A DNA stretch of 64,000 bases, taken from positions 11,529-75,528 of the forward strand of contig JACRDY010000059.1 of NCBI GenBank assembly GCA_016218485.1, given 5' to 3'. How positions within the stretch are numbered: the stretch's first letter is position 1; each line of letters begins with the position of its first letter. Below are positions 32,650 to 56,650 of this stretch, one piece after another. Origin of the DNA: Candidatus Falkowbacteria bacterium (GTDB lineage Bacteria; Patescibacteriota; Patescibacteriia; JACRDY01). The notes beneath the pieces were generated by a model, which saw only the letters and a list, made by a program, of their open reading frames with translations, did not search any database and had not been told where the DNA came from. A program made the position numbers and the translations under genes.

Positions 32650-32740
32650 ATTAAAAATCTTGTTAAATTGCCACATTGCCAAATTGTCGCACTGTTGTGT
32701 GAGGTATTTAACAATGTAGCCATGTGACAATGTAACAATA
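32650..32740. repeat. attgcca-heptamer-based palindromic repeat upstream of uvrB
   Basis: Related to 16670-16810. Confidence 0.6.
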
Positions 32741-34662
32741 TGTTATTTAAAGTCGTTTCCCCATTCCAGCCGGCCGGCGATCAACCCGAGGCCATTACGG
32801 CCTTAACGGGCGGTTTTGCCAAATATCCGCAGCAGACGCTCCTCGGCGTGACCGGGTCAGGCAAGACTTTTACCGCGGCCAATGTCATTGCCAGACTGAA
32901 CAAGCCGACGTTGGTTTTGTCGCACAACAAGACACTGGCGGCGCAGCTGTACAATGAGTTCCGGGAATTTTTTCCCGAGAACAAGGTATGTTATTTTGTT
33001 TCGTATTACGACTACTACCAGCCGGAGAGCTATTTGCCGATCACTGACACGTACATTGAGAAGGACATGAAGATCAATGAGAAGATTGAGCAGCTGCGGC
33101 TTGAGGCCACGGCGGCCTTGATGAGCCGTGATGACGTGATTGTTGTCTCGTCCGTTTCTTGCATTTACGGCCTGGGCAAGCCGGATAATTTTAAATCCAG
33201 CGCCGTGGAAATCAAAGTGGGCAGTAAAATTTCCCCGGAAGAATTTGTCTCAAAACTCGTAGACATCCAGTATGAGAACTCGGACCTAGAGCTGCATCCG
33301 GGGAATTTTCGTTTGCGTGGCAGTACGGTGGAGCTGATTGAGGGCGCGGGTACCACGGTGCTGCGAATCGAGTTTGATGAAAAGAAAATCGCCAAGATCA
33401 GCGAGCTGCATCCCATCACGTTCAACAAGACCGGAGACATCAGTGACGTCTACATTTTCCCGGCGCGGCATTTCGTGTTTGACGCCGGCAGCACTCAGAA
33501 AGCTCTGAAAACCATTCGGGCTGAATTACAAGAACGGCTGCCCCAGCTCGATGACATTAAAGCCTATCGCCTTGAGAAGCGGACGAATTATGACCTGGAA
33601 ATGATAGAGCAGCTGGGACACTGCAAGGGGATTGAGAACTACTCGCGGCACTTTGACGGCCGGCGTCCGGGCGAGCAGCCCTATACCCTGATTGATTATT
33701 TCAAAGCTAAGGGTGACTGGCTGCTCTTAATTGACGAGAGCCATGTATCGCTGCCGCAGGTCCAGGGTATGTACGGCGGCGACCGCAGCCGCAAGGACAA
33801 TTTGATTGAGCACGGTTTTCGCTTGCCCTCGGCGTACGACAATCGGCCATTGACCTTTACTGAATTTGAAAAATATTTAAATCACGTGATTTATATTTCC
33901 GCCACGCCGAGCGAATATGAACGGGAACACTCGGGTCAGATCGTTGAGCAGATTATTCGGCCGACCGGTCTCGTGGATCCTCCGATCACGGTCAAGCCGG
34001 CCGAAGGCCAAGTCAAAGACGTGGAGCGGGAAATCCGGAAAACGGTTGAGCAGGGCTACCGCGTCTTAGTTACCACCTTGACTAAACGTCTGGCTGAAGA
34101 TTTGACCAGCTATTTGGTTGAACAGAACATTAAGGCCAAATACCTGCACAGTGAGATTGATACGATGGAGCGGACTAGGCTGATTCAGGATTTGCGCTTG
34201 GGTAAGTTTGACGTTTTGGTTGGGATTAACCTGCTCCGGGAAGGCCTGGACATCCCGGAAGTGGCGCTGGTGGCGATACTGGACGCGGACAAGGAAGGCT
34301 TCCTGCGCAATGAACGCAGTCTGATCCAGACCATTGGCCGAGCGGCGCGCAATGTGGACAGCCGGGTGATTATGTATGCCGACACGTATACCCGTTCAAT
34401 CAAAGCGGCCATCAAAGAAACCGACCGCCGACGGATGCGGCAAGAGCAGTATAATACCGAGCACGGCATTACTCCGGAGAGCATTACTAAGGCGATTATT
34501 GTTCGTGAGGACGTCATTCTGCCGGAATTGAAGGGCCAAGCGCTGGATGCCGAAAAAGTGTTAGTTGAGCTGGAGCTGCAGATGCAGGCCGCGGCCGAGA
34601 GTCTGGACTTCGAGCGGGCGATCATGCTGCGGGATAAGATTAAAGAATTAAAAGAGAAATAA
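32740..34662 (+). CDS. uvrB: excinuclease ABC subunit B
   Basis: 640 aa; GVTGSGKT Walker A, helicase motifs and C-terminal UVR domain. Confidence 0.95.
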   Translation: MLFKVVSPFQPAGDQPEAITALTGGFAKYPQQTLLGVTGSGKTFTAANVIARLNKPTLVLSHNKTLAAQLYNEFREFFPENKVCYFVSYYDYYQPESYLPITDTYIEKDMKINEKIEQLRLEATAALMSRDDVIVVSSVSCIYGLGKPDNFKSSAVEIKVGSKISPEEFVSKLVDIQYENSDLELHPGNFRLRGSTVELIEGAGTTVLRIEFDEKKIAKISELHPITFNKTGDISDVYIFPARHFVFDAGSTQKALKTIRAELQERLPQLDDIKAYRLEKRTNYDLEMIEQLGHCKGIENYSRHFDGRRPGEQPYTLIDYFKAKGDWLLLIDESHVSLPQVQGMYGGDRSRKDNLIEHGFRLPSAYDNRPLTFTEFEKYLNHVIYISATPSEYEREHSGQIVEQIIRPTGLVDPPITVKPAEGQVKDVEREIRKTVEQGYRVLVTTLTKRLAEDLTSYLVEQNIKAKYLHSEIDTMERTRLIQDLRLGKFDVLVGINLLREGLDIPEVALVAILDADKEGFLRNERSLIQTIGRAARNVDSRVIMYADTYTRSIKAAIKETDRRRMRQEQYNTEHGITPESITKAIIVREDVILPELKGQALDAEKVLVELELQMQAAAESLDFERAIMLRDKIKELKEK

Positions 34663-34666
34663 ATCT

Positions 34667-35119
34667 ATGAAGAAAAAACACGTGGACGCAGAGTACAGTC
34701 AGATCACCTCCTATATCTGGATTGGCACTAATCAGTGCTGTAATTTCCATTTTAAGAAAGAATTATTGCGGCAGGGGATTGACGCGGATATTAGTCTGGA
34801 AGAAGAGCGGGTGGATGAGCCGGTTGGTGTGCATCATTTTCTCTGGTTGCCAGTCAAAGATCATCATGCGTTGAGTCAGACACAGTTGCATATTGGGGCG
34901 GCTTTTATGGAAACGTTAGTCAAAAGCAAAATCAAGATGTATGTCCACTGCAAAAACGGTCATGGCCGTTCACCCAGTTTGGTGATGGCTTATTTTATCA
35001 CGCAAGGCAAAACGTATCAGCAGGCCTTTGACTTGGTCAAGAGTAAACGTCCGGAAGTACATCTTCGGCCGAGTCAAACAGCGGCTCTGCGGAAGTTTGC
35101 TCAGCGTCGGAAGAAATAA
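34667..35119 (+). CDS. dual-specificity / tyrosine protein phosphatase (DUSP-like)
   Basis: 150 aa; VHCKNGHGRSPS = HCx5R catalytic loop. Confidence 0.75.
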   Translation: MKKKHVDAEYSQITSYIWIGTNQCCNFHFKKELLRQGIDADISLEEERVDEPVGVHHFLWLPVKDHHALSQTQLHIGAAFMETLVKSKIKMYVHCKNGHGRSPSLVMAYFITQGKTYQQAFDLVKSKRPEVHLRPSQTAALRKFAQRRKK

Positions 35120-35231
35120 AAAAACAAACCCGTTCGCAATAGCGGGAACGGATTTGTTTGACGGTTCCAGGTTTGACACTTGAATATTACCAGTATAACA
35201 AAGTATATTGTTGTGTCAATGGAATAGGTGT

Positions 35232-35300
35232 GGAGCTAAGGGGAATCGAACCCCTGTATTCAAGTGTCAGGCTGGAATACCGCCACCAGGCATAGCTCCA
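35232..35300 (-). tRNA. tRNA-like gene with canonical acceptor and T-arm but atypical D/anticodon region; anticodon unresolved (loop CCUGACA)
   Basis: Minus-strand RNA GGAGCUAUGCCUGGUGGCGGUAUUCCAGCCUGACACUUGAAUACAGGGGUUCGAUUCCCCUUAGCUCCA; 7/7 acceptor pairs; GGGGUUCGAUUCCCC T-arm; no CCA; anticodon stem needs a C-U mismatch or a 9-bp stem. Confidence 0.55.
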
Positions 35301-35381
35301 CACCCAAGGCGAGTGTACCAGAGGTAGTATTAAAAAAATCTAAACTATTTAATTAATTAAAATTTTTGCCTTACTGTTGAT

Positions 35382-38222
35382 ATGCCCAGTGAATCCATCC
35401 AAATCCGCGGCGCGCGGGAACACAATCTCAAGAGCATCAACGTGGATATTCCGATTAACCAGTTCACGGTGATTACCGGCCTGTCCGGCAGCGGCAAGTC
35501 GAGCCTCGCGTTTGACACCGTCTACGCCGAGGGTCAGCGTCGGTATGTTGAGAGTCTGTCGAGTTACGCCCGGCAGTTTTTGGGCATCATGGGCAAGCCG
35601 GATGTGGACAGCATCAAGGGCCTCTCGCCGGCGATTTCGATTGAGCAGAAGAGTATCTCACACAACCCGCGCTCAACCGTCGGGACGATCACGGAAATTT
35701 ACGACTACTTGCGTCTGCTCTATGCCCGGATCGGCGTGCCGCACTGTCCGCTGTGCGGTACGGTAATCAAACCGCAAGACGCGGAGAGTATTACCAAAAA
35801 TTTGCTGACTGGTTTTGCCGGGAAAAAAGTCAAGATTCTGGCGCCCATTGTGCGTGGCAAAAAGGGCAACTACGAGCAGCTATTTTTAGACTTGAACAAA
35901 CAGGGCTATGTCCGCGTCCGGGTGGATGGCAAGGAAGGGGAGGTGACGGATTATTTTGGCCAGGGTAAGACAGTGATTGAGCGCTATGCCCCGCACAACA
36001 TTGAAGTCTTGATTGACACGATTAAAGTTGACGGTCCGGCGAAAACTCGGTTGCAGCGCTCGATTGAGTCGGCATTGAAGCTGGCCGCTGGTCTGGTGAT
36101 GGTTATTATTGAGCAGCATAAAAAAGACGCAATTGAAAAAGTTTACTCACAGCATTTAGCTTGTCCGGACTGCGGCATTAGTTTTGACAAATTACAGCCG
36201 CGCCTGTTCAGCTTCAATTCACCCTTTGGCGCCTGTCCGACCTGTCACGGTCTGGGCTTTATCCAAAAATTCGAGCCGGAGCTGATTATTCCGGACAAAG
36301 GCTGGACGCTGTCTGAGGGCGCTATTCGGCCGCAGGGGTTCAGCGTCAGCGGGTTCTTTGGTCAAATGCTCGAGACCCTCGGTCACAAGTACAAGTTTAG
36401 CGTTGAGACGCCGGTTCAGGATTTGTCCAAGAAAATCATGGATATTATTTTCTATGGCACGGATGACAAGATTGACTGGGAATTCGCCTCCAAGAGCACG
36501 GATAATGTCTGGGAGTGGACGGGTCGCTGGGAGGGGATTGTGCACCGTCTGGAGCGGCTGTACAAGCAAACGGACTCGGATAGCCGGCGGGCGGAGATGG
36601 AGCGCTACATGATAGAGCAGCCGTGCGGTGGCTGCGGCGGCGCCCGGCTCAAGCAGGAGGCGCTGGCCGTGATGCTATCCGGTAAAAATATCCATGAGAT
36701 TACCGGCTTGCCAATTACCGAGCTGGTTGCTTTTCTGTCCACGATCAAGCTGAACAAAGCGGAAACCGAGATCGGCAAACAAATCATGAAAGAGCTGGCT
36801 GACCGACTGCAGTTTCTGGTTGACGTCGGACTTGATTATTTGACGCTGGCGCGGCGCGGGGCCACGCTGTCCGGGGGCGAGGGTCAGCGGATTCGTCTGG
36901 CGACGCAGATCGGCTCGGAGCTGCGCGGCGTGACCTATATCCTGGACGAGCCGTCGATCGGCCTGCACCAACGTGATAATGAGAAACTGATCAAGACGCT
37001 CAAGAATATGCGCGATATTGGCAACACCGTCATCGTGGTGGAGCACGACGAGGATACGATTTTGGCCGCGGATTATGTGTTTGATATCGGGCCGGGCGCG
37101 GGGATCCACGGCGGGCACGTGGTGGCGGAGGGCACGCCGGAGCAGATTAAGAAAAATAAAAAATCGCTGACCGGGGCGTATCTGTCCGGCCGCCAGCACA
37201 TCAGCGTCCCGGATAAGCGGCGCCGGCCGCACGGTTTTATTGAGCTGCGCGGCGCGCGCCACAATAATTTGAAAGATATTAACGTCGACTTTCCCGTGGA
37301 AGTGCTGTGCTGCATCACCGGCGTGTCCGGCAGCGGCAAGTCCAGCCTGATTACCGACACGTTGTATCCAATACTCGCCAAGAAACTGCACTACGCGCGC
37401 GTGGTGCCCGGCGCGCATGACAGCATTGAGAATTTCGGCTATGTGGACAAGGTGATTATCATTGACCAGTCGCCGATTGGCCGGACGCCCCGTAGTAATC
37501 CAGCTACTTATACGGGAGTGTTTACTTATATTCGTGAGTTATTTGCCGCTACGAAAGAGGCTAAGATACGGGGCTACCAGCCGGGACGGTTCAGCTTCAA
37601 CGTTGAGGGCGGACGCTGCGGCAACTGCGAGGGCGACGGCGTGATTAAGATTGAGATGCATTTCTTGCCTGATGTCTATGTGGAGTGCGAGCAGTGCAAA
37701 GGTCAGCGCTACAATGAGGAAACACTGGAGGTGAAGTACAAAGACAAGAATATCGCTGAAGTTCTGAATATGACGGTGGAAGAAGCCCTGACGTTCTTCG
37801 GGCCGGTGCCGCGGATTAAGAGCAAGATGCAGACGCTCTTCGACGTTGGCTTGGGCTATATCAAGCTGGGCCAGTCCGCCACCACGCTGTCCGGCGGCGA
37901 GGCCCAGCGCATCAAGCTGACCGCCGAGTTGTCACGGCGCGATACCGGGCGTACACTGTATATACTTGATGAGCCGACCACCGGCCTGCACTTCGCCGAC
38001 ATTGAGAAGCTCCTGGAAGTGCTGAATCGTCTGGTGGACAAAGGCAACACGGTGATCGTGATTGAGCACAATCTCGACGTAGTCAAGTCCGCGGACTATA
38101 TTATTGATTTGGGTCCCGAAGGCGGCGACCGCGGCGGGCAAGTGATTGCCAAAGGCACGCCAGAGCAGATAGTCAAAGAAAAGGGGAGCTATACCGGGAA
38201 GTTTTTGCGGAGGGTGGTTTAA
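35382..38222 (+). CDS. uvrA: excinuclease ABC subunit A
   Basis: 946 aa; two ABC modules with zinc-finger insertions. Confidence 0.95.
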
Positions 38223-38334: not shown

Positions 38335-39414
38335 ATGGAGGAATTTAAATTAAAAGCATTCAAAGTCATCCAAAATGGTAGGCAATTTTACGTTTCAACC
38401 ATCACATGTGAGCAGCTACTCGACGAAGATACCTTTAGAACCGACATTTGGAAAGAGGAATTGAAAAATACTCCATCAAAACAAGGGTATCAACGAGAAC
38501 CATCTCAAAATCATGTTAATGGAGTTGTGAAGTATATGGCTGGTGATAATATATCAATTTTTCCCACCAGTATTTTGCTAAATTGCCGTTATAAAATACC
38601 TAGTCGCGAAAATGGCAGTATATTTGAGATAACTATTGATAGACCTCTATGGATCGTGGATGGTCAGCACCGAATTTATGGCATTAGAAAGGCCATTCAA
38701 GAGAAAGGTCTAAGAGAGTGGAAAGGATTTTCTGTGCCGGTAGTTATATTAGATGAATTTGATCAAGGTGAAGAATTAGCTCAATTTAAGGTTATTAATG
38801 AGAGTCAAAAGGGGATATCTACTGGTCTGTTGCAGTGGCAGATGTATCAACAGTATACTCGTGACCCTGAAATGAAGGATAAATATAAGAGTAAAATTTG
38901 GCAGGTCAAAGCTTTAATGGCTATGGATAAACTTAATGATGACGATAATAGCCCTTGGAAAAATCATATTCAACTGCCAAACGTGGAGAAACGCAGAGAT
39001 CATTCAATTAACCAAACTTCTTTTGTGACTTCTTTGAAGCCTTTATTTAAGGATGGTTTTCTAAGTAATTATAAACTAGATGATTCGGTTTTAGTCCTTA
39101 AGAATTATTGGAAAGCGGTCTCTGTATTGTTTCCTGAGGCAATGAAAGACCATAAGCATTATTTACTATTAAAAACCCCTGGTATTTTTCCATTACATCT
39201 ATTAGCTAACGAAATATTACCGCGTTGTAACAAAGATGTCAGTATAGAGAAGATATTGGAGTATTTAAAAGTTGTTTTTAAAGATCAAAAATATAGTAAC
39301 GAATTTTGGTCGAAAAAAGGCCGAGGAGCAGCTTTGTTAGGAAGTATGAAAGGATTTAAACGTTTAGCGGATGATTTGATCATGGATCTTCCAGAACAAA
39401 CCTTAACAAAATAA
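38335..39414 (+). CDS. DGQHR domain protein (DndB-like, ParB/Srx-fold)
   Basis: 359 aa; WIVDGQHRIYGI motif; ~36% GC against a ~55% background. Confidence 0.75.
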   Translation: MEEFKLKAFKVIQNGRQFYVSTITCEQLLDEDTFRTDIWKEELKNTPSKQGYQREPSQNHVNGVVKYMAGDNISIFPTSILLNCRYKIPSRENGSIFEITIDRPLWIVDGQHRIYGIRKAIQEKGLREWKGFSVPVVILDEFDQGEELAQFKVINESQKGISTGLLQWQMYQQYTRDPEMKDKYKSKIWQVKALMAMDKLNDDDNSPWKNHIQLPNVEKRRDHSINQTSFVTSLKPLFKDGFLSNYKLDDSVLVLKNYWKAVSVLFPEAMKDHKHYLLLKTPGIFPLHLLANEILPRCNKDVSIEKILEYLKVVFKDQKYSNEFWSKKGRGAALLGSMKGFKRLADDLIMDLPEQTLTK

Positions 39415-39639: not shown

Positions 39640-39830
39640 TAGGGTGTGTAATAGCCCGTTCCCCTCCTTTCCAAGGAGGGGCCAGGGGCGGTTGCCGGAG
39701 CCTTCGGTCTCTACCCAAGCTTTGTTCGCAGGCCACGGTAGCAGCCAATACCTCGGCAACCTCACCCGTCCTCCCCTTAGAAAGGGGAGGAACGGTCTAT
39801 TCCCGGTTGCCGGAGTTTAAATCCAATATA
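39640..39830. repeat. GC-rich mosaic repeat (cccctcctttccaaggagggg; ggttgccggagccttcggtc; cctccccttagaaaggggagg)
   Basis: Shares modules with 12790-12900. Confidence 0.7.
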
Positions 39831-39834
39831 TATG

Positions 39835-40233
39835 ACAAAAATTTACAACCGTCGTCAATTTAAACACTTGCGGCAAAAATTAAAGAGGGAATCAACCCCT
39901 TCGGAAGATAGGCTTTGAGGCGAAATTAACAACCGCCAATTAGGATTTAAGTTTCGCCGTCAGCACGGCATCGGTAAGTACATCGTTGATTTTTACTGTG
40001 CCGAACTACAATTGGTTATTGAGGTGGATGGCGACTCGCATACCGACCCCGATATTTACGCCGCTGACCGCATTCGTGATGCTGCATTAAGTGTTCAGGG
40101 TATAACGATTAAGCGGTATTACAGCAATGAAATTTTTAATAATTTAGAAGGTGTTATCTTGGATATTGAGGAAGTGTGTCGTGGGATAAAAAACAGCCGC
40201 CCGGGGGAGACCCGAGCGGAGCGGTGGCCATGA
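39835..40233 (+). pseudogene. DUF559 (Vsr-like endonuclease-fold) gene remnant: no ATG start and an in-frame TGA at the conserved Trp position
   Basis: Frame translates KIYNRRQFKHLRQKLKRESTPSEDRL*GEINNRQLGFKFRRQHGIGKYIVDFYCAELQLVIEVDGDSH..., matching the DUF559 consensus end to end; TGA at 39916-39918. Confidence 0.65.
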
Positions 40234-40256
40234 TGGTATAGCCGATGGTTTGGTAC

Positions 40257-40547
40257 CTACTCGCCGTAGGTACGGGTATACATCGCGAGCTGTTTGGCGA
40301 TGATCACGATCGGCTGACCCGGTTCGATGACGTAGGGTGGTCCACCCAAGCAGGATTTTCGTCCATTGATCATGAGTATTCCTTCTTGGGTTGAGATTGT
40401 TGTTCGCTGTACTGCCGGGCCGAGATCGTATTCGCCCGCCATGATCACATTCCAGGATTTGACGGGGTTGCCGTCAGCATCCAGTGCCCTCACATTTTTG
40501 ATTCGGCCATCGTGGCCGTGTCCAATGCTGGTTACCTTGCTGAGCAC
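40257..40547 (-). CDS. hypothetical small protein
   Basis: 96-aa ORF; weak DUF3892-like feel; not confidently assigned. Confidence 0.4.
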   Translation of the reverse strand: MLSKVTSIGHGHDGRIKNVRALDADGNPVKSWNVIMAGEYDLGPAVQRTTISTQEGILMINGRKSCLGGPPYVIEPGQPIVIIAKQLAMYTRTYGE

Positions 40548-40710
40548 CCTCCACCTCCTTGGATCTCGTCGTGTGAGTTTAAAGTATACGGTCAGTCACA
40601 AAAAGTCAAGTGAATCGTTCTATAGAGTAGTGGCGGATTTGGCCCCTTTGGTTTATAATTATACTGTTACTCTTTGGCAGCTCAATTAACTTATTCATAA
40701 AAAATGCAGT

Positions 40711-41748
40711 ATGAATAATTCTCCATTGTTTCCGCGTTTGTGGGAAAAATTTAAACAGCTGTTCGTGATTGTGGCTGTGGTGCTGGTGGTCGGCTCAATC
40801 GTGGTGTATTTTGGCGCCACTAGTCTGACGCGACTACGGTATGGCGGGATCAGCGCTAATGACGCGCCAAGTTACGGCGGCGCGTTCGGAGATTATGGCG
40901 TGGCGACCGGCCTGAGCGCGAGTGATTCTCGTGGCGTGTTTCAGACCAAAGTCGCGTATGAGGCGGATGACTCGGGCAACGGACTGGTGGCAGCGGCGCA
41001 GGCTCAGGAGGGTGAGCTGACTCAGAAGAAAATTATCCGCAATGGCGCGCTCGGTCTGTTCGTGGACAGTCCGGAGGAGTCAGCGCAGGCGATTGAGCGG
41101 GTGGCTCTGAGCGTGGACGGTTTTGTCCAGGATTCGAATATTAGCGAGCAGACGAATGGCAGCAAGTACGGGGAAGTGGTCATCCGGGTGCCGGCTGTTG
41201 AGTTTGATTCCGTTATGGAGCAAATCAAGGGCCTGGCTCGTGAAGTGGAATTTGAGCGCGAGAACGCGCAGGATGTGACGGAGCAGTTTGTCGACCTGGA
41301 CGCGCAGCTGCGCAATTATCGGGCGGAAGAGGGGCGCTATCTTAAATTCATGAATCAGGCGAAGAATATTGATGAGACGCTCAAAGTCGCCGAGCGGCTG
41401 AGCGTGGTCCGCGGGCAGATTGAGCGGATCGAGGGTCAGCTCAAGTTTCTGTCCCGGCAGGTTGATATGTCAGTCATCAGTGTCAGCCTGACATCGTATG
41501 ACGACGTTAAGGTCTTTGGCGTGCGCTGGCGGCCGTTGTATGAGCTCAAAAAAGCGGCGCGCGGTCTGTTTGAGGCGGGTCGGACGTATATCAACTTTGT
41601 TATCAAGTTGGTTGTCTATCTGCCGATCATTGTGCTCTGGGCGCTGACTATCCTTCTGGTTACCTGGGTCGTTTGGAAATTGTTGAAGTGGCTGCACCGG
41701 CGATTTTTGCAAGGGAAAAAATTGGATGATAGTTGGCCGCGGCAGTAA
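40711..41748 (+). CDS. DUF4349-like membrane-anchored protein (N-terminal TM, coiled-coil middle, C-terminal TM)
   Basis: 345 aa with that architecture. Confidence 0.6.
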   Translation: MNNSPLFPRLWEKFKQLFVIVAVVLVVGSIVVYFGATSLTRLRYGGISANDAPSYGGAFGDYGVATGLSASDSRGVFQTKVAYEADDSGNGLVAAAQAQEGELTQKKIIRNGALGLFVDSPEESAQAIERVALSVDGFVQDSNISEQTNGSKYGEVVIRVPAVEFDSVMEQIKGLAREVEFERENAQDVTEQFVDLDAQLRNYRAEEGRYLKFMNQAKNIDETLKVAERLSVVRGQIERIEGQLKFLSRQVDMSVISVSLTSYDDVKVFGVRWRPLYELKKAARGLFEAGRTYINFVIKLVVYLPIIVLWALTILLVTWVVWKLLKWLHRRFLQGKKLDDSWPRQ

Positions 41749-41794
41749 AAAAGAGTATAGTAAAGGGGTGCTATTTAGTGCCCCTTTTGGTAGT

Positions 41795-43411
41795 ATGTCA
41801 TTTTTTATTAAAAAAATTGGTCTTCATCAGCGGTATACTATTATTTTTGTTTTGTTAGGGATCGCTTCTTTTTTGGTTTTTAGTGTCCTGTCTGCCCGAC
41901 TGGCTTTCGTATCGGATGAATATGAGTTTATTTACGCTGCAGCGCAGGTACGCGATTGGGGTACACTTGTTCAGGTGCTAACCTCGAAAATTGGTGGCGA
42001 TTTTTATCGTCCAGTTTTGTATTTTTCTTTTATTATTGATTTTTGGGTTTATGGTTTGCAACCATTTGGTTATTATCTAACCAATAGTTTGTTAGCGGCG
42101 GTTAATGTGGTTTTAGTAGCGTTGATAGTTTTTACCGCTTTAGTTAATTACTTTTATAGTGATCCACGGGATCATGCTCGCAGTTTATTTCTTGCCCTTG
42201 TCTCTGGCGTGGTCTTTATGATTTTTCCGAATCATCATGAAGCCGTCACGTGGTTGGCCGCCAGAACGGATCTCTTAGCCGCTACGTGGTACTTTTTATC
42301 AGTTCTATTGTGGTTAAAATATTTAGCGGCCGAGAGGCGGGGTGGTCGGTATTTGACTGCAGGTTGTATTTTTGCCTTTCTAGCTTTTTTTACCAAAGAG
42401 ATGAGCGTTACCTTGGTACTCGCGCTGCCCATTATTTTTTTAGGGCATTTATTGTATATGCATCAGCGCCAGCAAAATTATAATTTTAAAAAATTGGTTG
42501 GTTTCTTGCCGCTTTTGGCGATATTTATTTTTTATTTGGTCTTCCGGCGGTATATCGTGGGGTATTGGTTCGGCGGGTATATGCTGAGTGGCAGTTCCGA
42601 GTTTCTTAAAATAGACATTCCGGCGGTTATCCGTTTGGTGTTGTCACCGGTGTCGATAGTTTTTTATTCACTGAATCATAGTTATTTTTTTCAGATAGTA
42701 TTGCCGCGTTGGGGCGGACCGTTTCGGGGGTTACCGTTTACCGATTATTTACAATATTTTAAATTTTTGTTTTATGGCGGTGGGGCAGTGTTCATATCGT
42801 TAACGGCGTTTTTTGCCTATTATCAGCAGCGAGTGCGTACCTGGTTACTGGGTGTCATGGTCGGCATACTCTGGGTTTATGTGACGATTCTGCCGATAGT
42901 TGGTTTACTAAAAACCGTTGGGTTGAATTTGGAATCAACGAGGTTTTTTTATTTACCCTCACTAGGAATTTGTTTTCTGTTGACGTTTAGTGTACTGTTT
43001 TGGCCAAAAATTATCCGTGGTATTATGGTGGTTGTCATGGTGTCTTTATTGTCAATTGTCTATTGGATAAATTATCAGCCGTGGTTGACTGCTTCCGTTT
43101 CCGCCAATTCAATTCAGCAAACCGTTACGCAATACGGTAGTGAGATCGTTTTCGACGATTGGGTGTATCTCGTGAATGTTCCCGATAATATCCATGGTGC
43201 CTATGTTTTTCGTCGGGGGTTGACTCAGATGTTCCAGCTCTTTCAGCCTCAGATTGATCGGCAGAAAATAATTATAACCGGCCGAGGCGTGGCAGGCATG
43301 GCCGCGCCAGACTGTTTATCATTGCTCAGCGATCAGTATTGGTTGATGAATACCGATCCTGAGAGCGGTATTGTTGATGGTTTGAGCAGAGCGGGAGCGG
43401 GGGGGGGGTAG
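41795..43411 (+). CDS. GT-C family glycosyltransferase (PMT/ArnT-like), interrupted at a G10 tract
   Basis: Many TM helices; GYYLTNSLLAAVNVVLVALIVF matches the GT39/83 N-terminal loop region; start inferred at MSFFIKK; stop immediately follows G10 at 43399-43408. Confidence 0.65.
   Translation: MSFFIKKIGLHQRYTIIFVLLGIASFLVFSVLSARLAFVSDEYEFIYAAAQVRDWGTLVQVLTSKIGGDFYRPVLYFSFIIDFWVYGLQPFGYYLTNSLLAAVNVVLVALIVFTALVNYFYSDPRDHARSLFLALVSGVVFMIFPNHHEAVTWLAARTDLLAATWYFLSVLLWLKYLAAERRGGRYLTAGCIFAFLAFFTKEMSVTLVLALPIIFLGHLLYMHQRQQNYNFKKLVGFLPLLAIFIFYLVFRRYIVGYWFGGYMLSGSSEFLKIDIPAVIRLVLSPVSIVFYSLNHSYFFQIVLPRWGGPFRGLPFTDYLQYFKFLFYGGGAVFISLTAFFAYYQQRVRTWLLGVMVGILWVYVTILPIVGLLKTVGLNLESTRFFYLPSLGICFLLTFSVLFWPKIIRGIMVVVMVSLLSIVYWINYQPWLTASVSANSIQQTVTQYGSEIVFDDWVYLVNVPDNIHGAYVFRRGLTQMFQLFQPQIDRQKIIITGRGVAGMAAPDCLSLLSDQYWLMNTDPESGIVDGLSRAGAGGG
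43399..43408. repeat. Homopolymeric G10 tract
   Basis: Read directly; removing one G fuses the 41726-43411 and 43419-43817 frames. Confidence 0.9.
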
Positions 43412-43418
43412 CCATGAT

Positions 43419-43817
43419 TTGGTCGATTGGGATTTGGCGGCGGGTGAAGTGATCGGCAACGATATTGCAGTGGTATCCACGGGGGTCTATCGGGTAACCG
43501 GGCCGCATCCTGAGATTGTTTTTAGAAATCTTGATTTAGATCCTGCTGGAATAAAAAATTTACAGTTGACGGTAATCCCTAAAAATAATTATCTTTGGCA
43601 GCCCTACCATGTCTACTGGACGACTAATAGGTATCCGGGTTATCATGAGTACCATCGTAATATTTGGGTCTTCCGTGACGTGTTGTCTCTGGATGCACAG
43701 AGTGAAAATTTCCAGATTCCAGTTTGTCGGTATCCCGCGTTTGTTTTTTCCGATAGTGTACAAGATATAAAATTGACATTACCATTTGTTATTGGTGAAG
43801 ATTTCAGTTTGCAATAA
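43419..43817 (+). CDS. probable C-terminal continuation of the GT-C glycosyltransferase (frame +1 after the G10 tract)
   Basis: Frame is open back through the poly-G; TTG start only; 132 aa. Confidence 0.45.
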   Translation: MVDWDLAAGEVIGNDIAVVSTGVYRVTGPHPEIVFRNLDLDPAGIKNLQLTVIPKNNYLWQPYHVYWTTNRYPGYHEYHRNIWVFRDVLSLDAQSENFQIPVCRYPAFVFSDSVQDIKLTLPFVIGEDFSLQ

Positions 43818-43823
43818 GTAGGT

Positions 43824-45383
43824 ATGCTATTTTCTATTAACCAAGTTATCATCCCCAGTCAGCCCGGCTGCTACCTGATGAAAAATTCAGCCGGAGAGAT
43901 TTTGTATATTGGTAAAGCCAAAAATCTGCCCAAGCGGGTCAAGTCATACTGGCAAAAAAAGCATATTGATCCAAAACTGGACGAGCTTATCACCGAGGTG
44001 GCGGATATTGAATTCATGGTTACGCGCAATGAAGTGGAAGCATTACTCCTGGAGGCGCGCCTGATCAAGCAGCACCAGCCGAAGTACAACTCCATGCTCA
44101 AGGAAAACGTCCCGTATTTGTATATCAAGATTACCGATGAAGAATTTCCTCGGTTGGTCAGCGTCAGGAAAATTGAGGGACCGGGGAAATATTTCGGGCC
44201 GTTTGTCAGCGGTCGCGGGCGCAAGTATCTGCTCCTGACCACCGCGCGCCTGTTCGGCATTCGGACGAACAAGCTGACGAGCCGCAGCAGCCGCGAGCTG
44301 TATCAGCTCTTGAGCGAGATCAAAGAAAAGCAACTGGAAAAATTGTCGCCAGTGGAATACCAGCGCAACGTCAAACTGGCGGACATGTTCCTGCGCGGTA
44401 AGCGGACGCAGCTTTTGGGCGAGCTGGAAAAGAGAATGAAGCAGGCGAGCGCTGAAGAGCATTTCGAGCTGGCCAAATTATATCGCGATCAAATTCACGC
44501 CATCAAGATTATTGCCGAGGATCAGCTGGTGTCGCTGCCCAAGAGCTATGATCAGGATGTGGTTAATTTTGTCATGGCCGGCGAGACGGCGTATTTCCAG
44601 GTGTTTAATGTCAGTAAGGGGATAGTGACTTCAAGACAGCAGATAGCGGTTAGCGGTTGGCAGTTAGCCAGTCAGCCCGGATTATTACGCGATTTTTTAC
44701 AACAGTACTACTTAACCCGTGCCGCACCAAAGGAAATTGTTTTGCCGATTGAACCGGCGGAGTCAGCTTTAATAGAGCAATATCTGGAAGATTTGAAAAG
44801 TCAGAAGGTTTTTTTAACCATACCAAAAGTGGGCGACAAGAAGAAACTATTGGAACTCGTGCGGGAAAATATTTTGAGCGGTCTGGCCAATAATCCACTG
44901 GCTGAACTGCAGGCGCAATTGGGCCTCCAGCGGCTGCCCCTGACCATTGACGGTTTTGATATTTCTAATACCTCGGGCCAGCAGGCGGTTGGCTCGTGCG
45001 TGCGTTTCCATGACGGCAAACCGGACAAGAGCATGTACCGGAAGTTTAGAATTAAAACCGTTGAGGGGCCGAATGACTTTGCCATGATGAAAGAAGTCGT
45101 GGGGCGGCGGTACCGTGAGGGCAAGGATGTGCCTGATTTAATCTTGATTGATGGGGGCAAGGGTCAGCTCGGGGTGGCAACGCGCGCGCTGCAAGCTTTA
45201 CGAATTATGGTGCCGGTTATTTCTTTAGCCAAAAAACAGGAGGAAATTTTCATCCCCGGCCGGGAGCAGTCCATTCAGCTGGATAAGAATTCACCGGCCC
45301 GTAAACTGCTGCAGCAGGTTCGGGATGAGGCGCATCGGTTCGCGATCAGTTACCACAAGCTGCTAAGAAAAAGACGGGGCTAA
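43824..45383 (+). CDS. uvrC: excinuclease ABC subunit C
   Basis: 519 aa; N-terminal GIY-YIG (GCYLMKNSAGEILYIGKAKNL), UvrBC-interaction region and RNase-H-like endonuclease domain. Confidence 0.88.
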   Translation: MLFSINQVIIPSQPGCYLMKNSAGEILYIGKAKNLPKRVKSYWQKKHIDPKLDELITEVADIEFMVTRNEVEALLLEARLIKQHQPKYNSMLKENVPYLYIKITDEEFPRLVSVRKIEGPGKYFGPFVSGRGRKYLLLTTARLFGIRTNKLTSRSSRELYQLLSEIKEKQLEKLSPVEYQRNVKLADMFLRGKRTQLLGELEKRMKQASAEEHFELAKLYRDQIHAIKIIAEDQLVSLPKSYDQDVVNFVMAGETAYFQVFNVSKGIVTSRQQIAVSGWQLASQPGLLRDFLQQYYLTRAAPKEIVLPIEPAESALIEQYLEDLKSQKVFLTIPKVGDKKKLLELVRENILSGLANNPLAELQAQLGLQRLPLTIDGFDISNTSGQQAVGSCVRFHDGKPDKSMYRKFRIKTVEGPNDFAMMKEVVGRRYREGKDVPDLILIDGGKGQLGVATRALQALRIMVPVISLAKKQEEIFIPGREQSIQLDKNSPARKLLQQVRDEAHRFAISYHKLLRKRRG

Positions 45384-45397
45384 TGTATCGTATACTA

Positions 45398-45525
45398 AAA
45401 TTCAAAGTTCAAAATCCAAATGACAAATCAAGTTCAAAGCCTAAATGTCAAATCAACGCACCTTTTTGAACTTTGTCATTTGGCATTGATTTGAACTTTG
45501 GATTTTGAACTTTGAACTTATCGGG
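45398..45525. repeat. AT-rich gttcaaagt palindromic repeat
   Basis: Near-identical to 14325-14450. Confidence 0.75.
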
Positions 45526-51237: not shown

Positions 51238-51339
51238 AAAAATTAGAAATTGGAGAAAAACCCTTTGAAATAAAAGGTTTTTTATTTGCCAAAATAGGGG
51301 ATTCTGGTATAGTTGATGAGGGAGAAATTCAGTATTTCC

Positions 51340-51440
51340 TGCGTTTTAGTTATTGGAAAGAGATTTAGTATATCGTATGTCGTATATGGTATGTGGGGAA
51401 ATTCCCCCATATACCATATACCACATACTATATTCCCCCC
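51340..51440. repeat. gtatatg-heptamer-based palindrome directly upstream of paralog 1
   Basis: tcgtatgtcgtatatggtatgtgggg / ccccatataccatataccacatac. Confidence 0.6.
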
Positions 51441-51441
51441 T

Positions 51442-53091
51442 ATGCTCAACTGCAAGAATTGTAATCAACCTTTCACCATCTACCCCGAAGACCAGGAAAT
51501 GTACGATAAGTTTGCCGTACCCGCGCCGCGGCGTTGTCCGCGTTGCCGGCTGATTCAGCGGCTGATGTTCCGGAACGCTCGGGCCCTGTATTACCGGAAG
51601 TGCGACCGCAGCGGCGAGACCATTTTGTCCAGCTATAATCCGAGTCAGCCGTTCCCGGTGTACAAGCCGGATATTTGGTGGAGTGACCAATGGGAAGCCA
51701 TGGATTACGCCCGGGATTATGATTTTGGCAAACCATTTTTTGCCCAATTCAAAGAGCTGAATGACGTGGTACCGCACTTCAGCCTCTTCGTCAGTAATGG
51801 CACGGTGGTGAATTGCGACTTTACCAACTGTATTGGTTTTTCCAAGAATTGTTATTTGACGTTTGAGACTGACTACGCGGAGGACAGCTATTACTCCAAC
51901 CTCTTGAAACGGAGCAAGGACATGGTGGACTGTTCTATTTGCTATGATGATGAATTTTGCTACCAGTGCGTTGATTGCCAGGCGTCGTACGGCTTGCGCT
52001 ATTGTCAAAATTGCACCGGTTGCCGGGACAGCTATTTCCTGTTTGATTGTAAATCGTGTAATGACTGCATCGGCTGTATCAACCAGCGCTATCAGAAATT
52101 CATGATTTTTAACGAGCAGTACAGTGAAGCAGAATATAACCAGAAAAAAGCCGCGCTGCGGCTGGATACCCGCTCGGGCGTCGCGGCGCTCGCTTCGCAG
52201 TGCCAGCAGTTTTTCGGGAAGCACCCGCACAAAAATTTGCAGTTTGAAAAGAACGTCAATAGTGTCGGTAACTATTTGTATAACTCCAAAAACGCATTCC
52301 AGTGCTTCGACTGCAGCGACCTGGAAGACTGCCGCTACTGCGCTAAGCTGTCAATCGGCGTCAAGTCGTGCATGGATTACAACTCGTGGGGCGACCGGGC
52401 GGAGCTCGTCTACAGCTGTTCGGATGTCGGCGGCGGCGTGTATAACCTGAAATTTTGCTGGGCGATTGATACCAAGACCTCAGACTGTGAATACTGCACG
52501 CAGTGTATTGCCTGCAAGGACTGCTTTGGCTGCAGCGGACTGCAAAAGAAGCAGTACTGCATTTTGAATAAACAGTATTCGGAAAAAGAGTATTTCGCGT
52601 TGAAAGAAAAAATTATTGCCAAAATGACAGCCGATGGAGAGTATGGTGAATTTTTTCCGGCAGAGCTGTGTCCGTTTGCCTATAATGAAACCATCGTGAT
52701 GGATTATTTCCCCCTAACCAAAGATGAAGCGTTGAAAGCCGGCTATCGCTGGTATGACCGGGAAAAGTCCAAGCAGCCTGCTGAAACTGAGGCGCCGGAT
52801 GCGATTGGCGAGGTGGCGGACGCCATCATTGGTAAGGTATTAGCCTGCCGTGATTGCCAGTCAAATTATAAGATTATTAAACAAGAATTAGATTTTTGCC
52901 GTCGGGCGAGCGCGCCGATTCCTAGCCAGTGTCCGGACTGCCGACATTTTGGCCGAATGAACAAGCGGATGCCGCTGAGTTTGATCACGGTCAAATGCGA
53001 TAAATGCGGCAATGACATGACGACCGGATATACTGCCGGGGCGGTGCAGAAGGTGTATTGCGAGGAATGTTATCAGAAGGAAATTTACTAG
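51442..53091 (+). CDS. Cys-rich multi-zinc-ribbon repeat protein, paralog 1 of 6 (unassigned family)
   Basis: N-terminal CxxC...CPRCR ribbon; two internal Cys-rich blocks each ending in YC(I/M)(L/F)N(K/E)QYSE.EY; GEYGEFFP...PFAYNET; C-terminal ribbons ending YCEECYQKEIY. Confidence 0.8.
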   Translation: MLNCKNCNQPFTIYPEDQEMYDKFAVPAPRRCPRCRLIQRLMFRNARALYYRKCDRSGETILSSYNPSQPFPVYKPDIWWSDQWEAMDYARDYDFGKPFFAQFKELNDVVPHFSLFVSNGTVVNCDFTNCIGFSKNCYLTFETDYAEDSYYSNLLKRSKDMVDCSICYDDEFCYQCVDCQASYGLRYCQNCTGCRDSYFLFDCKSCNDCIGCINQRYQKFMIFNEQYSEAEYNQKKAALRLDTRSGVAALASQCQQFFGKHPHKNLQFEKNVNSVGNYLYNSKNAFQCFDCSDLEDCRYCAKLSIGVKSCMDYNSWGDRAELVYSCSDVGGGVYNLKFCWAIDTKTSDCEYCTQCIACKDCFGCSGLQKKQYCILNKQYSEKEYFALKEKIIAKMTADGEYGEFFPAELCPFAYNETIVMDYFPLTKDEALKAGYRWYDREKSKQPAETEAPDAIGEVADAIIGKVLACRDCQSNYKIIKQELDFCRRASAPIPSQCPDCRHFGRMNKRMPLSLITVKCDKCGNDMTTGYTAGAVQKVYCEECYQKEIY

Positions 53092-53154
53092 CGCACAGCA
53101 CAGAGCTTATAGCACAAAGCTATGCGCTCTGAGCTCTGTGCTTTGAGCTACTTT
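53092..53154. repeat. Inter-paralog palindromic spacer (gcacagcacaaagc...gctctgagctctgtgctttgagc); same at 54841-54903 and 58418-58477
   Basis: Three near-identical copies read directly. Confidence 0.8.
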
Positions 53155-54840
53155 ATGCCAACCTGTAAACAATGCAATCAACCTTTCATCCTTGGCCAGA
53201 TCGGCACAGATATTTTGCGGCGGCTGGATGTACCTGAACCGTCAGTGTGTGATGTTTGCGCCGTGCGCCAGCTGATGGCCTTTCGGAACGAGCGGACTTT
53301 TTATTCCAGCCAGTGTCAGAAGTGTTCGAAAACCATTCTATCGATGTATCCGCCAGACACCGCGCTGAGCGTCTACTGTCGCGACTGCTGGTGGGGAGAT
53401 ACTTGGGACGGCACGCAGTTTGGCCGAGTGTATCGTGGGCCGGAAACATTTTTCCAAGAGCTAGCTGAACTGCAGAAAGTCGTGCCTCGGGAAGGATTGG
53501 TTAACCTGAACAGTCCGGATTGCGATTACTGCAACCACGTCCGTGATTGCAAGTCCTGCTATATGTGTTCGCTCTTGTCTGATCAGTGTGAAGAATGTTA
53601 CTACTGCTACTGGATTGTCACGGTGAAGGATTCAGCGGCCTGTTACTATGGGCGCAATAACCAGCGCTGTTACTTCTGTGTCGCCACGATCCAGAGCTAT
53701 GGCTGCTCGTATGTATTGGAATGTGAAAATTGTTTAGACTGCCACTATAGCTTTGATCTGCGAGGCTGTAAGAATTGCATGTTCAGCAGCAACTTACGCA
53801 ATCAGCAGTATGTTTTTGAGAATCAACAGTTGACCAAGACTGAATACGAAACGCGGGCCGCGGCAGTCAATCGGGGGAGCTGGCAGCAGTCACGAGACTC
53901 TGTGCAACGCTGGCATCAGCTGATTGACCAGGCGGTGAAGGCGTACTCATACCAGAGTAAATGTGAAAATTCTACCGGGGATAATATCCAGAGCAGCGTG
54001 AACACCCAGCTCGCCTATAATAGTTTTGAAGATGAAAACGCCTATAACGCCGCGAGCGTGATTTGTGCTAAGAATATTTTTAACGGTTTTGCCGTGGGCA
54101 GCCAGCCGACCGAATGGGCGAGTAATATCGCCGTCGTGAAGGGCGGCACGCAGATCGTCAGCTGTTTCAACACCGCGTACTCCAGCGATATTTATTTTTG
54201 TGAGAATCTAATTTCCTGCATGGACTGCATCGGCTGTATTGGCCTGCACAAAAAGAAGTACTGCATTCTGAATACACAGTATGAGGAAGAGGAGTATAAA
54301 AAAATCAAAGCCGAGCTACTCGGGTATTTGCGTCAGAGCGGCGCGCTGTCGGAATTTTTCCCAAAGTCATTTTCGCCATTTGCCTACAATGAAACCGCGG
54401 CGCAGGATTTTTATCCTTTGACGAAAGAACAAGCCGTTCAGCTGGACTATACTTGGAAGGATGAATTACCCGGGACTTTTGGCCATGAGACGCTGCCAGC
54501 CGATGGCGTGCCCGATCGGATTGCCGAGGTGAATGATGACATCTTACGGCAGACTCTAGCCTGTATTCACTGCGGCCGGAATTTCAAATTAATTAAACAA
54601 GAGCTGACACTTTATCGGTCGCTCGGCGTGCCGATCCCGCGCGAATGTTTTAATTGTACGTTGCGTCAGCGGCTGGACTTGATGGGGGAGCGTGATTTAC
54701 GGGAGCGGCAGTGTGATTGTACGCGAGCAGAACATCAGCAGCATCAGGGTAAAACATGCCAAAATAAGTTTTTGACGAAATATACCGCGAAAGATAAGAA
54801 GGTGTACTGCGAGGAGTGTTATCAGAAGGAAATTTACTAA
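53155..54840 (+). CDS. Cys-rich multi-zinc-ribbon repeat protein, paralog 2
   Basis: Same architecture; true start MPTCKQCNQPF (the ORF-track start lies in the inter-paralog palindrome). Confidence 0.8.
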   Translation: MPTCKQCNQPFILGQIGTDILRRLDVPEPSVCDVCAVRQLMAFRNERTFYSSQCQKCSKTILSMYPPDTALSVYCRDCWWGDTWDGTQFGRVYRGPETFFQELAELQKVVPREGLVNLNSPDCDYCNHVRDCKSCYMCSLLSDQCEECYYCYWIVTVKDSAACYYGRNNQRCYFCVATIQSYGCSYVLECENCLDCHYSFDLRGCKNCMFSSNLRNQQYVFENQQLTKTEYETRAAAVNRGSWQQSRDSVQRWHQLIDQAVKAYSYQSKCENSTGDNIQSSVNTQLAYNSFEDENAYNAASVICAKNIFNGFAVGSQPTEWASNIAVVKGGTQIVSCFNTAYSSDIYFCENLISCMDCIGCIGLHKKKYCILNTQYEEEEYKKIKAELLGYLRQSGALSEFFPKSFSPFAYNETAAQDFYPLTKEQAVQLDYTWKDELPGTFGHETLPADGVPDRIAEVNDDILRQTLACIHCGRNFKLIKQELTLYRSLGVPIPRECFNCTLRQRLDLMGERDLRERQCDCTRAEHQQHQGKTCQNKFLTKYTAKDKKVYCEECYQKEIY

Positions 54841-54903
54841 CACACAGCACAAAGCGCAGAGCACAAAGCTATGCGCTCTGAGCTCTGTGCTTTGAGCTAC
54901 TGT

Positions 54904-56565: not shown

Positions 56566-56650
56566 GAACGACACGCCCTCTGGGCGTGTTATGTTTGTTA
56601 CGCGCTCTGTAACCATAACACAGCCAGAGGCTGTGTCGTTCCCTTGGAGG
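56566..56650. repeat. Inter-paralog gacacgccctctgggcgtgttatg...cataacacagccagaggctgtgtc palindrome
   Basis: Same family as 48850-48950 and 60112-60190. Confidence 0.8.

What the first reader, a model, noticed from the sequence alone, without database searches (positions are those of the whole stretch)
41726..43817. G10 homopolymer splits a GT-C glycosyltransferase into two ORFs: phase variation or homopolymer error
The multi-TM PMT/ArnT-like gene terminates right after gggggggggg (43399-43408). The next ORF (43419-43817) is open in the +1 frame back through the tract, and loss of one G fuses them into a ~700-aa protein. Homopolymeric-tract slippage is a classic ON/OFF switch for surface glycosylation genes. 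Equally, G10 is a typical sequencing error site.
Basis: seen in the sequence. Interest (0 to 1): 0.55.

Follow-up and report, generated by a model that had tools for sequence, protein, structure and literature searches.

The report
G10 run splits a glycosyltransferase gene
A run of ten Gs breaks one membrane glycosyltransferase gene of a groundwater Patescibacteria (CPR) genome into two reading frames just before its sugar-binding-like end domain. This is a textbook candidate for an on/off slippage switch, but it cannot be told from a plain frameshift or a sequencing error without the reads.

Summary
G10 lies at 43399-43408, TAG follows at 43409-43411, and ORF2 (43419-43817) sits in the +1 frame. 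Removing one G gives a single 696-aa protein, or 673 aa from the likely start at 41795.

About a dozen orthologues were recovered at 29-45% identity. Every complete one is a single 641-727-aa protein spanning the junction, and ORF2 keeps every invariant residue. This is therefore one gene with a recent frameshift.

The protein is a TMTC-like GT-C enzyme (hhalign 99.9%; Foldseek top hits ArnT, ALG12, PMT), although Pfam does not hit it directly. The tract lies in a disordered linker, just before a self-contained CBM-like beta-sandwich, which is ORF2.

G10 is a strong outlier: no other G/C run in the window exceeds 7. An independent Logan re-assembly of run SRR12113407 reproduces G10 exactly, so an assembler artefact is unlikely. 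No second read set exists, so tract-length heterogeneity is untested.

Best reading (about 0.5): a real, slippage-prone tract caught in the truncated state. Rivals are an indel sequencing error (about 0.25), a decaying pseudogene (about 0.15) and recoding (about 0.05). This is an ordinary kind of feature in an unusual lineage, of modest interest.

The parts
41795..43411 (+). Upstream part of the split gene: 538 aa from the likely start M24, or 561 aa if read from ATG 41726. It holds the TMTC-like GT-C membrane core (about 11 TM helices, with the invariant SDEYEF acidic motif after TM1) and a first extracytoplasmic subdomain carrying the PDNxxGAYVFRRGL and GRG motifs.
   Evidence: alignment A1 invariants; AF2 pLDDT 79.6; Foldseek: ArnT, ALG12, AftD, DPY19, EmbB, Pmt; hhalign 99.9% to TMTC-like.
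43399..43408 (+). G10 homopolymer, reading GGG GGG GGG plus the last G of the preceding GCG. It encodes the end of a Gly-rich linker. G9 and G12 are in frame; G10 and G11 are out of frame.
   Evidence: The run is identical in Logan contig L005 and absent from orthologue DNA.
43386..43408 (+). The 23-nt interval in which the reading frame must change. It is bounded by the TGA in the downstream frame (43383-43385) and the TAG in the upstream frame (43409-43411).
   Evidence: three-frame translation.
43409..43411 (+). TAG stop that ends the upstream part in the G10 state.
43419..43817 (+). Downstream part (132 aa, annotated separately as HY933_03620). It is a self-contained beta-sandwich, CBM-like module with the invariant YWTT...CRYP motifs. 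It has no signal peptide and no ATG start.

Best explanation
Window 41795-43817 is a single gene for a TMTC-like GT-C (lipid-linked-sugar-dependent) membrane glycosyltransferase. Its extracytoplasmic C-terminus ends in a carbohydrate-binding-module-like beta-sandwich.

A lineage-specific run of Gs sits in the disordered linker just before that module. Such a run is prone to slipped-strand mispairing during replication.
- At G9 (or G12) the full 673-aa enzyme is made.
- At G10, the state assembled here, translation stops at the TAG right after the run. The cell then makes a 538-aa enzyme that lacks the CBM-like module.
- At G11 the enzyme is truncated after a 17-residue out-of-frame tail.

The sampled population was dominated by the truncated state. 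Cells would switch stochastically and reversibly between an enzyme with and an enzyme without its putative acceptor-binding module, and this would change surface glycosylation.

Shown: one gene, frameshift confined to the tract, tract statistically anomalous, downstream half undecayed, tract in a linker between domains, G10 reproduced by a second assembler.

Inferred: that the tract length really varies in the population, that switching is frequent, that the C-terminal module is outside the cell and binds glycan, and that the truncated enzyme behaves differently.
For: One gene, not two:
- Every complete orthologue is a single protein across the junction, and ORF2 keeps all 13 invariant C-terminal residues.
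- ORF1 and ORF2 share an atypical GC3 of 0.44 and 0.40, against 0.51-0.78 for neighbouring genes.

Frameshift at the tract:
- The frame switch is confined to 43386-43408.

Tract is anomalous:
- G10 is the only G/C run longer than 7 in the window. About 0.008 are expected per window, and 0.5% of order-5 Markov simulations contain one.
- It is built from three GGG codons, the minor Gly codon at 16%. No other GGG-GGG pair occurs in 38 genes.
- G/C runs of 7 or more are almost absent from about 100 kb of related loci.
- No orthologue has a tract or a Gly run at this position, so it is lineage-specific.

Not an assembler artefact:
- The Logan re-assembly of SRR12113407 is identical over 5742 bp, G10 included.
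- The typical Illumina error next to a homopolymer is a substitution, which cannot shift the frame (PMC8002175).
- PCR stutter is biased towards deletions, so a true G9 read as a majority G10 is the unlikely direction (PMC11878640).
- No other homopolymer of 8 or more in the window breaks a frame.

Position and gene class:
- The tract lies in a loop with pLDDT below 50, between two folded units. ORF2 folds on its own as a beta-sandwich.
- Poly-G tracts in glycosyltransferase genes are the classic phase-variable class (PMC2193922, PMC3068675, PMC8355987).
- Tracts placed late in a gene that alter the C-terminus have been described (PMC2823697).
Against: No read-level data and no second sample were available. 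Tract-length polymorphism, the defining feature of phase variation, is therefore untested. Only one run carries the locus.

The likely coverage is only about 16x, a figure inferred from the MAG name.

Only one such tract occurs in 64 kb, so there is no sign of a 'phasome'.

The tract is not conserved in any orthologue, so there is no evolutionary evidence that it is maintained.

Phase-variable tracts usually sit near the 5' end of a gene (PMC2831843).

Another orthologue (L006) is split at a T8 run. This fits sporadic inactivation or low-coverage error in this gene family as well as it fits switching.
Confidence: 0.5

Rival explanations
1. Sequencing or consensus indel error. The real genome has G9 (or G12) and an intact 673-aa gene, and the split is an artefact of reading a G10 run at modest coverage.
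For: [quoted passage not shown] The likely coverage is only about 16x. Both gene halves are perfectly intact, as expected if there is no real mutation. Both assemblies probably used the same reads, so they are not independent at the read level.
Against: Two different assemblers give G10. The usual Illumina homopolymer error is a substitution, not an indel. Stutter is biased towards deletions, so G9 read as a majority G10 is the less likely direction. No other homopolymer in the window causes a frameshift.
Confidence: 0.25
2. A real but non-adaptive frameshift. An accessory, possibly horizontally acquired, glycosyltransferase gene has just been inactivated at a mutational hotspot and is at the start of pseudogene decay. 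No ON variants are maintained.
For: The gene has an atypical GC3 (0.40-0.44 against about 0.65), which suggests a foreign or accessory gene. It sits with a low-GC DndB-like gene between uvrA and uvrC. Its genomic context is not conserved among orthologues. Another orthologue is also broken at a homopolymer (L006 T8), and one is truncated (L007).
Against: There is no further damage. The 132 codons of ORF2 are open to the exact orthologous C-terminus, and all invariant residues are kept. A G10 run reverts readily in any large population, so a 'fixed' OFF state is hard to separate mechanistically from switching.
Confidence: 0.15
3. Recoding. The full-length protein is made from the G10 template, either by +1 ribosomal frameshifting at GGG-UAG (as in prfB, with the G run acting as an upstream Shine-Dalgarno-like stimulator) or by RNA polymerase slippage on the run.
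For: The local sequence GGGGGGG-GGG-UAG places a stop codon in the A site directly after a slippery, Shine-Dalgarno-like G run. A +1 shift (GGG to GGU) gives exactly the orthologous frame.
Against: No orthologue has the site, so it is not a conserved programmed signal. The flanking RNA is not structured (z = +1.6). Few genes in the window have a Shine-Dalgarno motif. Bacterial transcriptional slippage is documented mainly for A/T runs (general knowledge).
Confidence: 0.05
4. Two genuine genes. ORF2 is translated separately, from TTG 43419 with the G run as its ribosome-binding site, and works as a free protein.
For: NCBI annotates two CDS. The G run ends 10 nt before the TTG. ORF2 folds alone as a complete beta-sandwich.
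Against: In every complete orthologue the module is fused. ORF2 has no signal peptide, whereas by GT-C topology the module belongs outside the membrane. No promoter or terminator lies between the ORFs.
Confidence: 0.03

Closest known systems
Poly-G phase-variable protein/LOS glycosyltransferase genes of Neisseria (e.g. pgtA/pglA; PMC2193922) and Campylobacter jejuni contingency loci (PMC3068675, PMC8355987)
   Same: An intragenic G run of about 8-11 in a surface-glycosylation gene. Tract lengths of 3n are in frame; other lengths give a premature stop.
   Different: In those cases length variation and switching have been shown experimentally and many such loci occur per genome. Their tracts are mostly 5'-proximal and sit in soluble GT-A/GT-B enzymes. 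Here there is a single assembled length, a single locus seen, a GT-C membrane enzyme, a tract at about 80% of the gene, and a free-living or episymbiotic groundwater Patescibacterium.
C-terminal phase variation in Helicobacter canadensis (PMC2823697)
   Same: A homopolymer late in the reading frame. A change in its length alters or removes the C-terminus rather than abolishing the protein.
   Different: Most of those cases change only a few residues. Here a whole 135-residue folded module would be lost.
TMTC1-4 and bacterial TPR-containing TMTC-like GT-C O-mannosyltransferases; more distantly PMT, ArnT, ALG12
   Same: Homologous membrane core (hhalign 99.9%, E 9e-34 over about 360 columns). 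The acidic motif after TM1 is shared (SDEYEF against FDDxE). The structural matches are GT-C enzymes.
   Different: There are no TPR or MIR domains. The extracytoplasmic part is instead a PDN-motif subdomain plus a CBM-like beta-sandwich. The protein does not match any Pfam or NCBIfam model directly. Donor and acceptor are unknown.
prfB (RF2) programmed +1 frameshift
   Same: A G-rich Shine-Dalgarno-like stretch lies directly upstream of a shift codon that is followed by an in-frame stop. A +1 shift restores the full protein.
   Different: The prfB site is conserved across bacteria and is autoregulatory. This site is unique to one genome.
Reversible frameshifts in homopolymers of Mycobacterium tuberculosis (glpK 7C tract; bioRxiv 10.1101/717272; PMC10334774)
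   Same: A short G/C run inside an ordinary gene gives transient, heritable loss of function, outside the classic mucosal pathogens.
   Different: In that case variation was shown across thousands of isolates and in experiments.

Membership tests
SSR-mediated phase-variable (contingency) locus | Homopolymer or short repeat of mutable length (G/C of about 7-8 or more) inside the ORF or promoter | tested here: met
   G10 at 43399-43408 inside the coding sequence.
SSR-mediated phase-variable (contingency) locus | Changes in repeat number move the gene between in-frame and out-of-frame states | tested here: met
   In silico, G9 gives a 696/673-aa fusion, G10 gives a stop at 43409, and G11 gives a 17-aa tail followed by a stop.
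SSR-mediated phase-variable (contingency) locus | Tract length is polymorphic within a population or between close strains | not testable with these tools
Only one run (SRR12113407) and one MAG carry the locus, and DNA pattern scans of the genome and metagenome collections found nothing.
SSR-mediated phase-variable (contingency) locus | High-frequency, reversible switching with a phenotype | not testable with these tools
   The organism is uncultivated, so this needs reads across time points or a reporter assay.
GT-C fold glycosyltransferase (TMTC/PMT/ArnT-like) | Polytopic membrane core with the GT-C architecture | tested here: met
   AF2 model with pLDDT 79.6 and about 11 TM helices. All Foldseek PDB top hits are GT-C enzymes: ArnT 5f15 at E 1.8e-4, then ALG12, AftD, DPY19, EmbB and Pmt1/2/4, at probability 0.94-1.00. 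TM-scores are low (0.25-0.36).
GT-C fold glycosyltransferase (TMTC/PMT/ArnT-like) | Conserved acidic (D/E) catalytic motif in the first extracytoplasmic loop | tested here: met
   S63, D64, E65 and E67 are invariant directly after TM1 in 9 of 9 sequences. They align with the invariant DD of TMTC-like proteins.
GT-C fold glycosyltransferase (TMTC/PMT/ArnT-like) | Sequence membership in a curated family (Pfam PMT_2 PF13231, DUF1736/TMTC, or a CAZy GT family) | tested here: not met
   No Pfam or NCBIfam hit for ORF1, ORF2, the fusion or the 8 orthologues, and no PDB sequence hit. The link is only transitive: distant relatives P0030, P0060 and P0104 pass the PMT_2 cut-off, and profile-profile comparison to TMTC-like proteins gives 99.9%.
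GT-C fold glycosyltransferase (TMTC/PMT/ArnT-like) | Uses a polyprenyl-phosphate-linked sugar donor and transfers outside the membrane | not testable with these tools
   Biochemical property.
Carbohydrate-binding module (beta-sandwich) | Beta-sandwich or jelly-roll fold similar to known CBMs | tested here: met
Carbohydrate-binding module (beta-sandwich) | Sequence membership in a CBM family, or a demonstrated glycan-binding site | tested here: not met
   No Pfam hit, and identities to CBMs are 4-13%. The match is resemblance of fold only.
Programmed +1 ribosomal frameshift (prfB type) | Shift codon followed by a poorly decoded or stop codon, with an upstream Shine-Dalgarno-like stimulator | tested here: inconclusive
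   The sequence GGGGGGG GGG UAG fits formally, but Shine-Dalgarno use in this genome looks weak.
Programmed +1 ribosomal frameshift (prfB type) | Site conserved among orthologues | tested here: not met
   No orthologue has the run or a frameshift at this position.

The most novel reading that the evidence does not exclude
This would be the first contingency locus described in Patescibacteria/CPR. A poly-G tract would stochastically switch a TMTC-like GT-C glycosyltransferase between a form with and a form without its CBM-like acceptor-binding module. That would diversify the cell-surface glycans of an episymbiont whose surface mediates attachment to hosts and exposure to phages. The full-text searches found no paper linking phase variation to this group: 0 papers hold both 'candidate phyla radiation' and 'phase-variable', and the only paper holding both 'phase variation' and 'Patescibacteria' is about archaeal methylation.
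Probability: 0.3. Interest if true: 0.55.

Novelty: new member of a known kind. Interest (0 to 1): 0.3.

Why it matters
If the tract really varies, an ultra-small, uncultivated groundwater symbiont would use the same slippage trick as Neisseria, Campylobacter and Helicobacter to vary its surface sugars. It would do so by domain-level switching of a GT-C enzyme rather than by simple on/off control.

That would give a concrete, read-countable marker for population heterogeneity in CPR surface biology. It would also point to a large GT-C family that Pfam does not cover (about 56,000 cluster representatives).

If it is an error or a dead gene, the practical lesson is narrower. HY933_03615 and HY933_03620 should be annotated as one frameshifted gene.

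Tried and rejected
- Direct family assignment. Pfam and NCBIfam on ORF1, ORF2, the fusion and all orthologues gave nothing. A PDB sequence search with the family profile gave nothing meaningful.
- Independent evidence for the tract length. An exact-flank DNA pattern with a variable gap found 0 hits in genome contigs and 0 in metagenome contigs. Exact-protein look-ups of ORF1, ORF2, UvrC and DUF4349 all led to the single Logan contig from SRR12113407. No fused version exists among 15 billion proteins.
- A conserved tract in orthologues. None was found: there is no G/C run and no Gly run in the equivalent linker.
- A recoding signal. The flanking RNA is less structured than shuffled controls (z +1.6).
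- Independent expression of ORF2. No promoter-like or terminator-like site lies between the ORFs.
- My first idea, that the frameshift cuts through a folded domain. I rejected it because ORF2 folds alone, its first 8 residues are disordered, and the module boundary in relative P0094 lies after the junction.
- Post-homopolymer substitution error as the cause. I rejected it because a substitution cannot change the frame.
- Conserved gene neighbourhood. Synteny is not conserved, although GT4, GT2 or Wzy genes lie next to some orthologues.
- The source of the MAG. It could only be inferred from name and GC content: NC_groundwater_1685_Pr3_B-0.1um_51_16, JACRDY. SRR12113407 is not mentioned in the held texts.
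Full report
**Observation**

G10 occupies 43399-43408. ORF1 (41726-43411) ends ...GGG GGG GGG TAG. ORF2 (43419-43817, TTG start, 132 aa) lies in the +1 frame, which is open back to 43386.

The downstream frame has a TGA at 43383-43385 and the upstream frame stops at 43409. The frame change must therefore lie in the 23 nt from 43386 to 43408, and ten of those are the G run.

Removing one G gives a continuous 696-aa product. Adding one gives a 17-residue tail and a stop.

The true start is probably ATG 41795 (M24), for three reasons. NCBI aa from that codon. The orthologues begin there. Residues 1-32 are modelled with pLDDT below 50 and overlap the upstream DUF4349 gene. From that start the fusion is 673 aa.

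**Is the run unusual?**

Yes.
- The window (50.9% GC) has five G/C runs of 6, one of 7, and then this run of 10.
- Log-linear extrapolation expects about 0.008 runs of 10 or more per window.
- Only 0.5% of fifth-order Markov simulations contain one.
- GGG supplies 16% of Gly codons in 38 other genes, and none of those genes has two adjacent GGG codons.
- The host gene has a low GC3 (0.44 and 0.40), which makes a G run even less expected.
- In about 100 kb of related Patescibacteria loci, only one C7 was seen.

**One gene or two?**

One.
- The fused sequence finds eight orthologues at 29-43% identity and 641-727 aa. Each is a single protein covering 91-97% of the fusion.
- Further intact copies came from the genome and metagenome scans.
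- In the alignment the conserved blocks run up to about 10 residues on each side of the tract.
- ORF2 keeps all 13 invariant C-terminal positions and ends at the orthologous C-terminus.
- ORF1 and ORF2 share a GC3 that differs from nearly every other gene in the window.
- ORF2 is annotated separately in GenBank: HY933_03620, next to HY933_03615, in a Candidatus Falkowbacteria MAG.

**What the protein is**

Pfam, NCBIfam and a PDB sequence search give nothing for it directly. Three remote methods agree on its identity:
- A profile search of 1.84 billion cluster representatives finds a very large family, with 56,236 representatives at E of 1e-3 or better. Most share only the membrane part. Some distant members pass the Pfam PMT_2 threshold.
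- Profile-profile comparison with TPR-containing TMTC-like O-mannosyltransferases gives probability 99.9% and E 9e-34 over residues 36-443. The invariant SDEYEF after TM1 lies opposite their FDDxE.
- An AlphaFold model (pLDDT 79.6, pTM 0.79) has about 11 TM helices. Its best PDB matches are all GT-C enzymes: ArnT, ALG12, AftD, DPY19, EmbB and Pmt1/2/4.

The extracytoplasmic C-terminal region has two parts. The first is a subdomain with the PDNxxGAYVFRRGL and GRG motifs, encoded in ORF1. The second is a beta-sandwich, encoded in ORF2.

The tract therefore lies in an inter-domain linker (pLDDT below 50 at residues 560-562). The G10 state deletes one module and leaves the catalytic core intact. 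Family members of about 520-570 aa without this module exist naturally, so the truncated enzyme is not obviously dead.

**Error or real?**

- The Logan assembly of run SRR12113407 contains a 5742-bp contig identical to window 39689-45430, G10 included. The tract length therefore does not depend on the assembler.
- The likely source is MAG NC_groundwater_1685_Pr3_B-0.1um_51_16. It was sequenced with 150-bp paired reads on HiSeq 4000 or NovaSeq and assembled with MEGAHIT at about 16x (PMC7906910). This identification rests on the MAG name and GC content only.
- The two assemblies probably share reads, so they are not independent at the read level.
- The characteristic Illumina error beside homopolymers is a substitution, which cannot shift the frame (PMC8002175).
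- PCR stutter is biased towards deletions (PMC11878640). A true G9 appearing as a majority G10 is the less likely direction.
- No other homopolymer of 8 or more in the window disrupts a gene.
- I put a consensus error at about 0.25.
- No second read set could be found. DNA pattern scans and exact-protein look-ups of four genes of the locus all return only this run.

**Other readings**

*Recoding.* A prfB-like +1 shift at GGG-UAG, with the G run as a Shine-Dalgarno-like stimulator, is formally possible. However, the site is unique to this genome, the flanking RNA is unstructured (z +1.6) and Shine-Dalgarno use is weak here.

*Separate translation of ORF2.* This would leave a module that belongs outside the membrane in the cytoplasm without a signal peptide. 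There is also no promoter or terminator between the ORFs.

*Simple early pseudogene.* This remains a real rival. The gene looks accessory (atypical GC3 and unconserved context). Another orthologue (L006) is split at a T8 run, and one (L007) is truncated near a T16 run in a 4x contig.

**Comparison with known systems**

The feature works like the poly-G contingency genes for glycosyltransferases in Neisseria and Campylobacter. Because the tract is late in the gene, it also resembles the 'C-terminal phase variation' proposed for Helicobacter canadensis.

Of the defining features of a phase-variable locus, two are met in silico: the tract is present and the outcome depends on frame. Observed length polymorphism and switching cannot be tested here.

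No paper in the held library links phase variation to CPR or Patescibacteria.

**Verdict**

This is one TMTC-like GT-C gene, frameshifted at an anomalous G10 run in the linker before a CBM-like module. It is most likely a real, slippage-prone tract caught in the truncated state (about 0.5), but phase variation is unproven.

It is a new member of a known kind. Interest is 0.3, rising to about 0.55 if read counts show length heterogeneity.

Noticed in passing
whole window (43 confident genes): No gene ends in TGA. Of 38 long genes tallied, 24 end in TAA, 14 in TAG and none in TGA. No confident gene has an in-frame TGA, although TGA is common out of frame and the GC content is 51%. This suggests that UGA is avoided or unassigned, possibly through loss of RF2. 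Only short unverified ORFs in the gaps end in TGA.
   Followed up: partly
window 51313-61841 (+): Six tandem paralogous genes of 546-592 aa, 32-45% identical to each other. Most carry an N-terminal treble-clef zinc finger (PF13451) and a C-terminal zf_Tbcl_2 domain, ending in ...VYCEECYQKEIY. Three are preceded by a nearly identical AGCACAAAGCGCAGAGCACAAAGCT leader. Their function is unknown.
   Followed up: partly
window 38335-39414 (+) and 38-40 kb: A DndB-like (PF14072) gene with GC 35% and GC3 0.30 sits in a low-GC stretch. Together with DUF4349 and the split GT-C gene, it is inserted between uvrB-uvrA (32740-38222) and uvrC (43824-45383). This looks like acquired DNA inside a uvr cluster.
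   Followed up: no
L006 871-878 (ENA ERZ4903125 k141_2347174): Another orthologue of the same GT-C family is split into two overlapping ORFs by a frameshift at a T8 run inside the last TM helix. P0029 is its downstream half.
   Followed up: partly
L007 5141-5156 (ENA ERZ1758449 NODE_1197, cov 4x): A T16 run lies inside a further family member (P0023), which ends prematurely at 429 aa. It could be low-coverage error or real truncation.
   Followed up: no
protein family of window 41795-43817: The membrane core belongs to a very large GT-C family with no direct Pfam model: 56,236 cluster representatives at E of 1e-3 or better, and 19,562 at 1e-10 or better. The family has variable extracytoplasmic C-terminal modules, including none, a small beta domain, one or two YWTT beta-sandwiches, or TPR repeats.
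   Followed up: partly
window 13249-13273: Three tandem copies of TAAGGAC lie directly upstream of the ATG of a T2SSE/PilT-type ATPase gene (13274-14323).
   Followed up: no
window 34667-35119 (+): A dual-specificity phosphatase (DSPc / polymorphic-toxin-type DSP-PTPase) gene is wedged between uvrB and uvrA.
   Followed up: no
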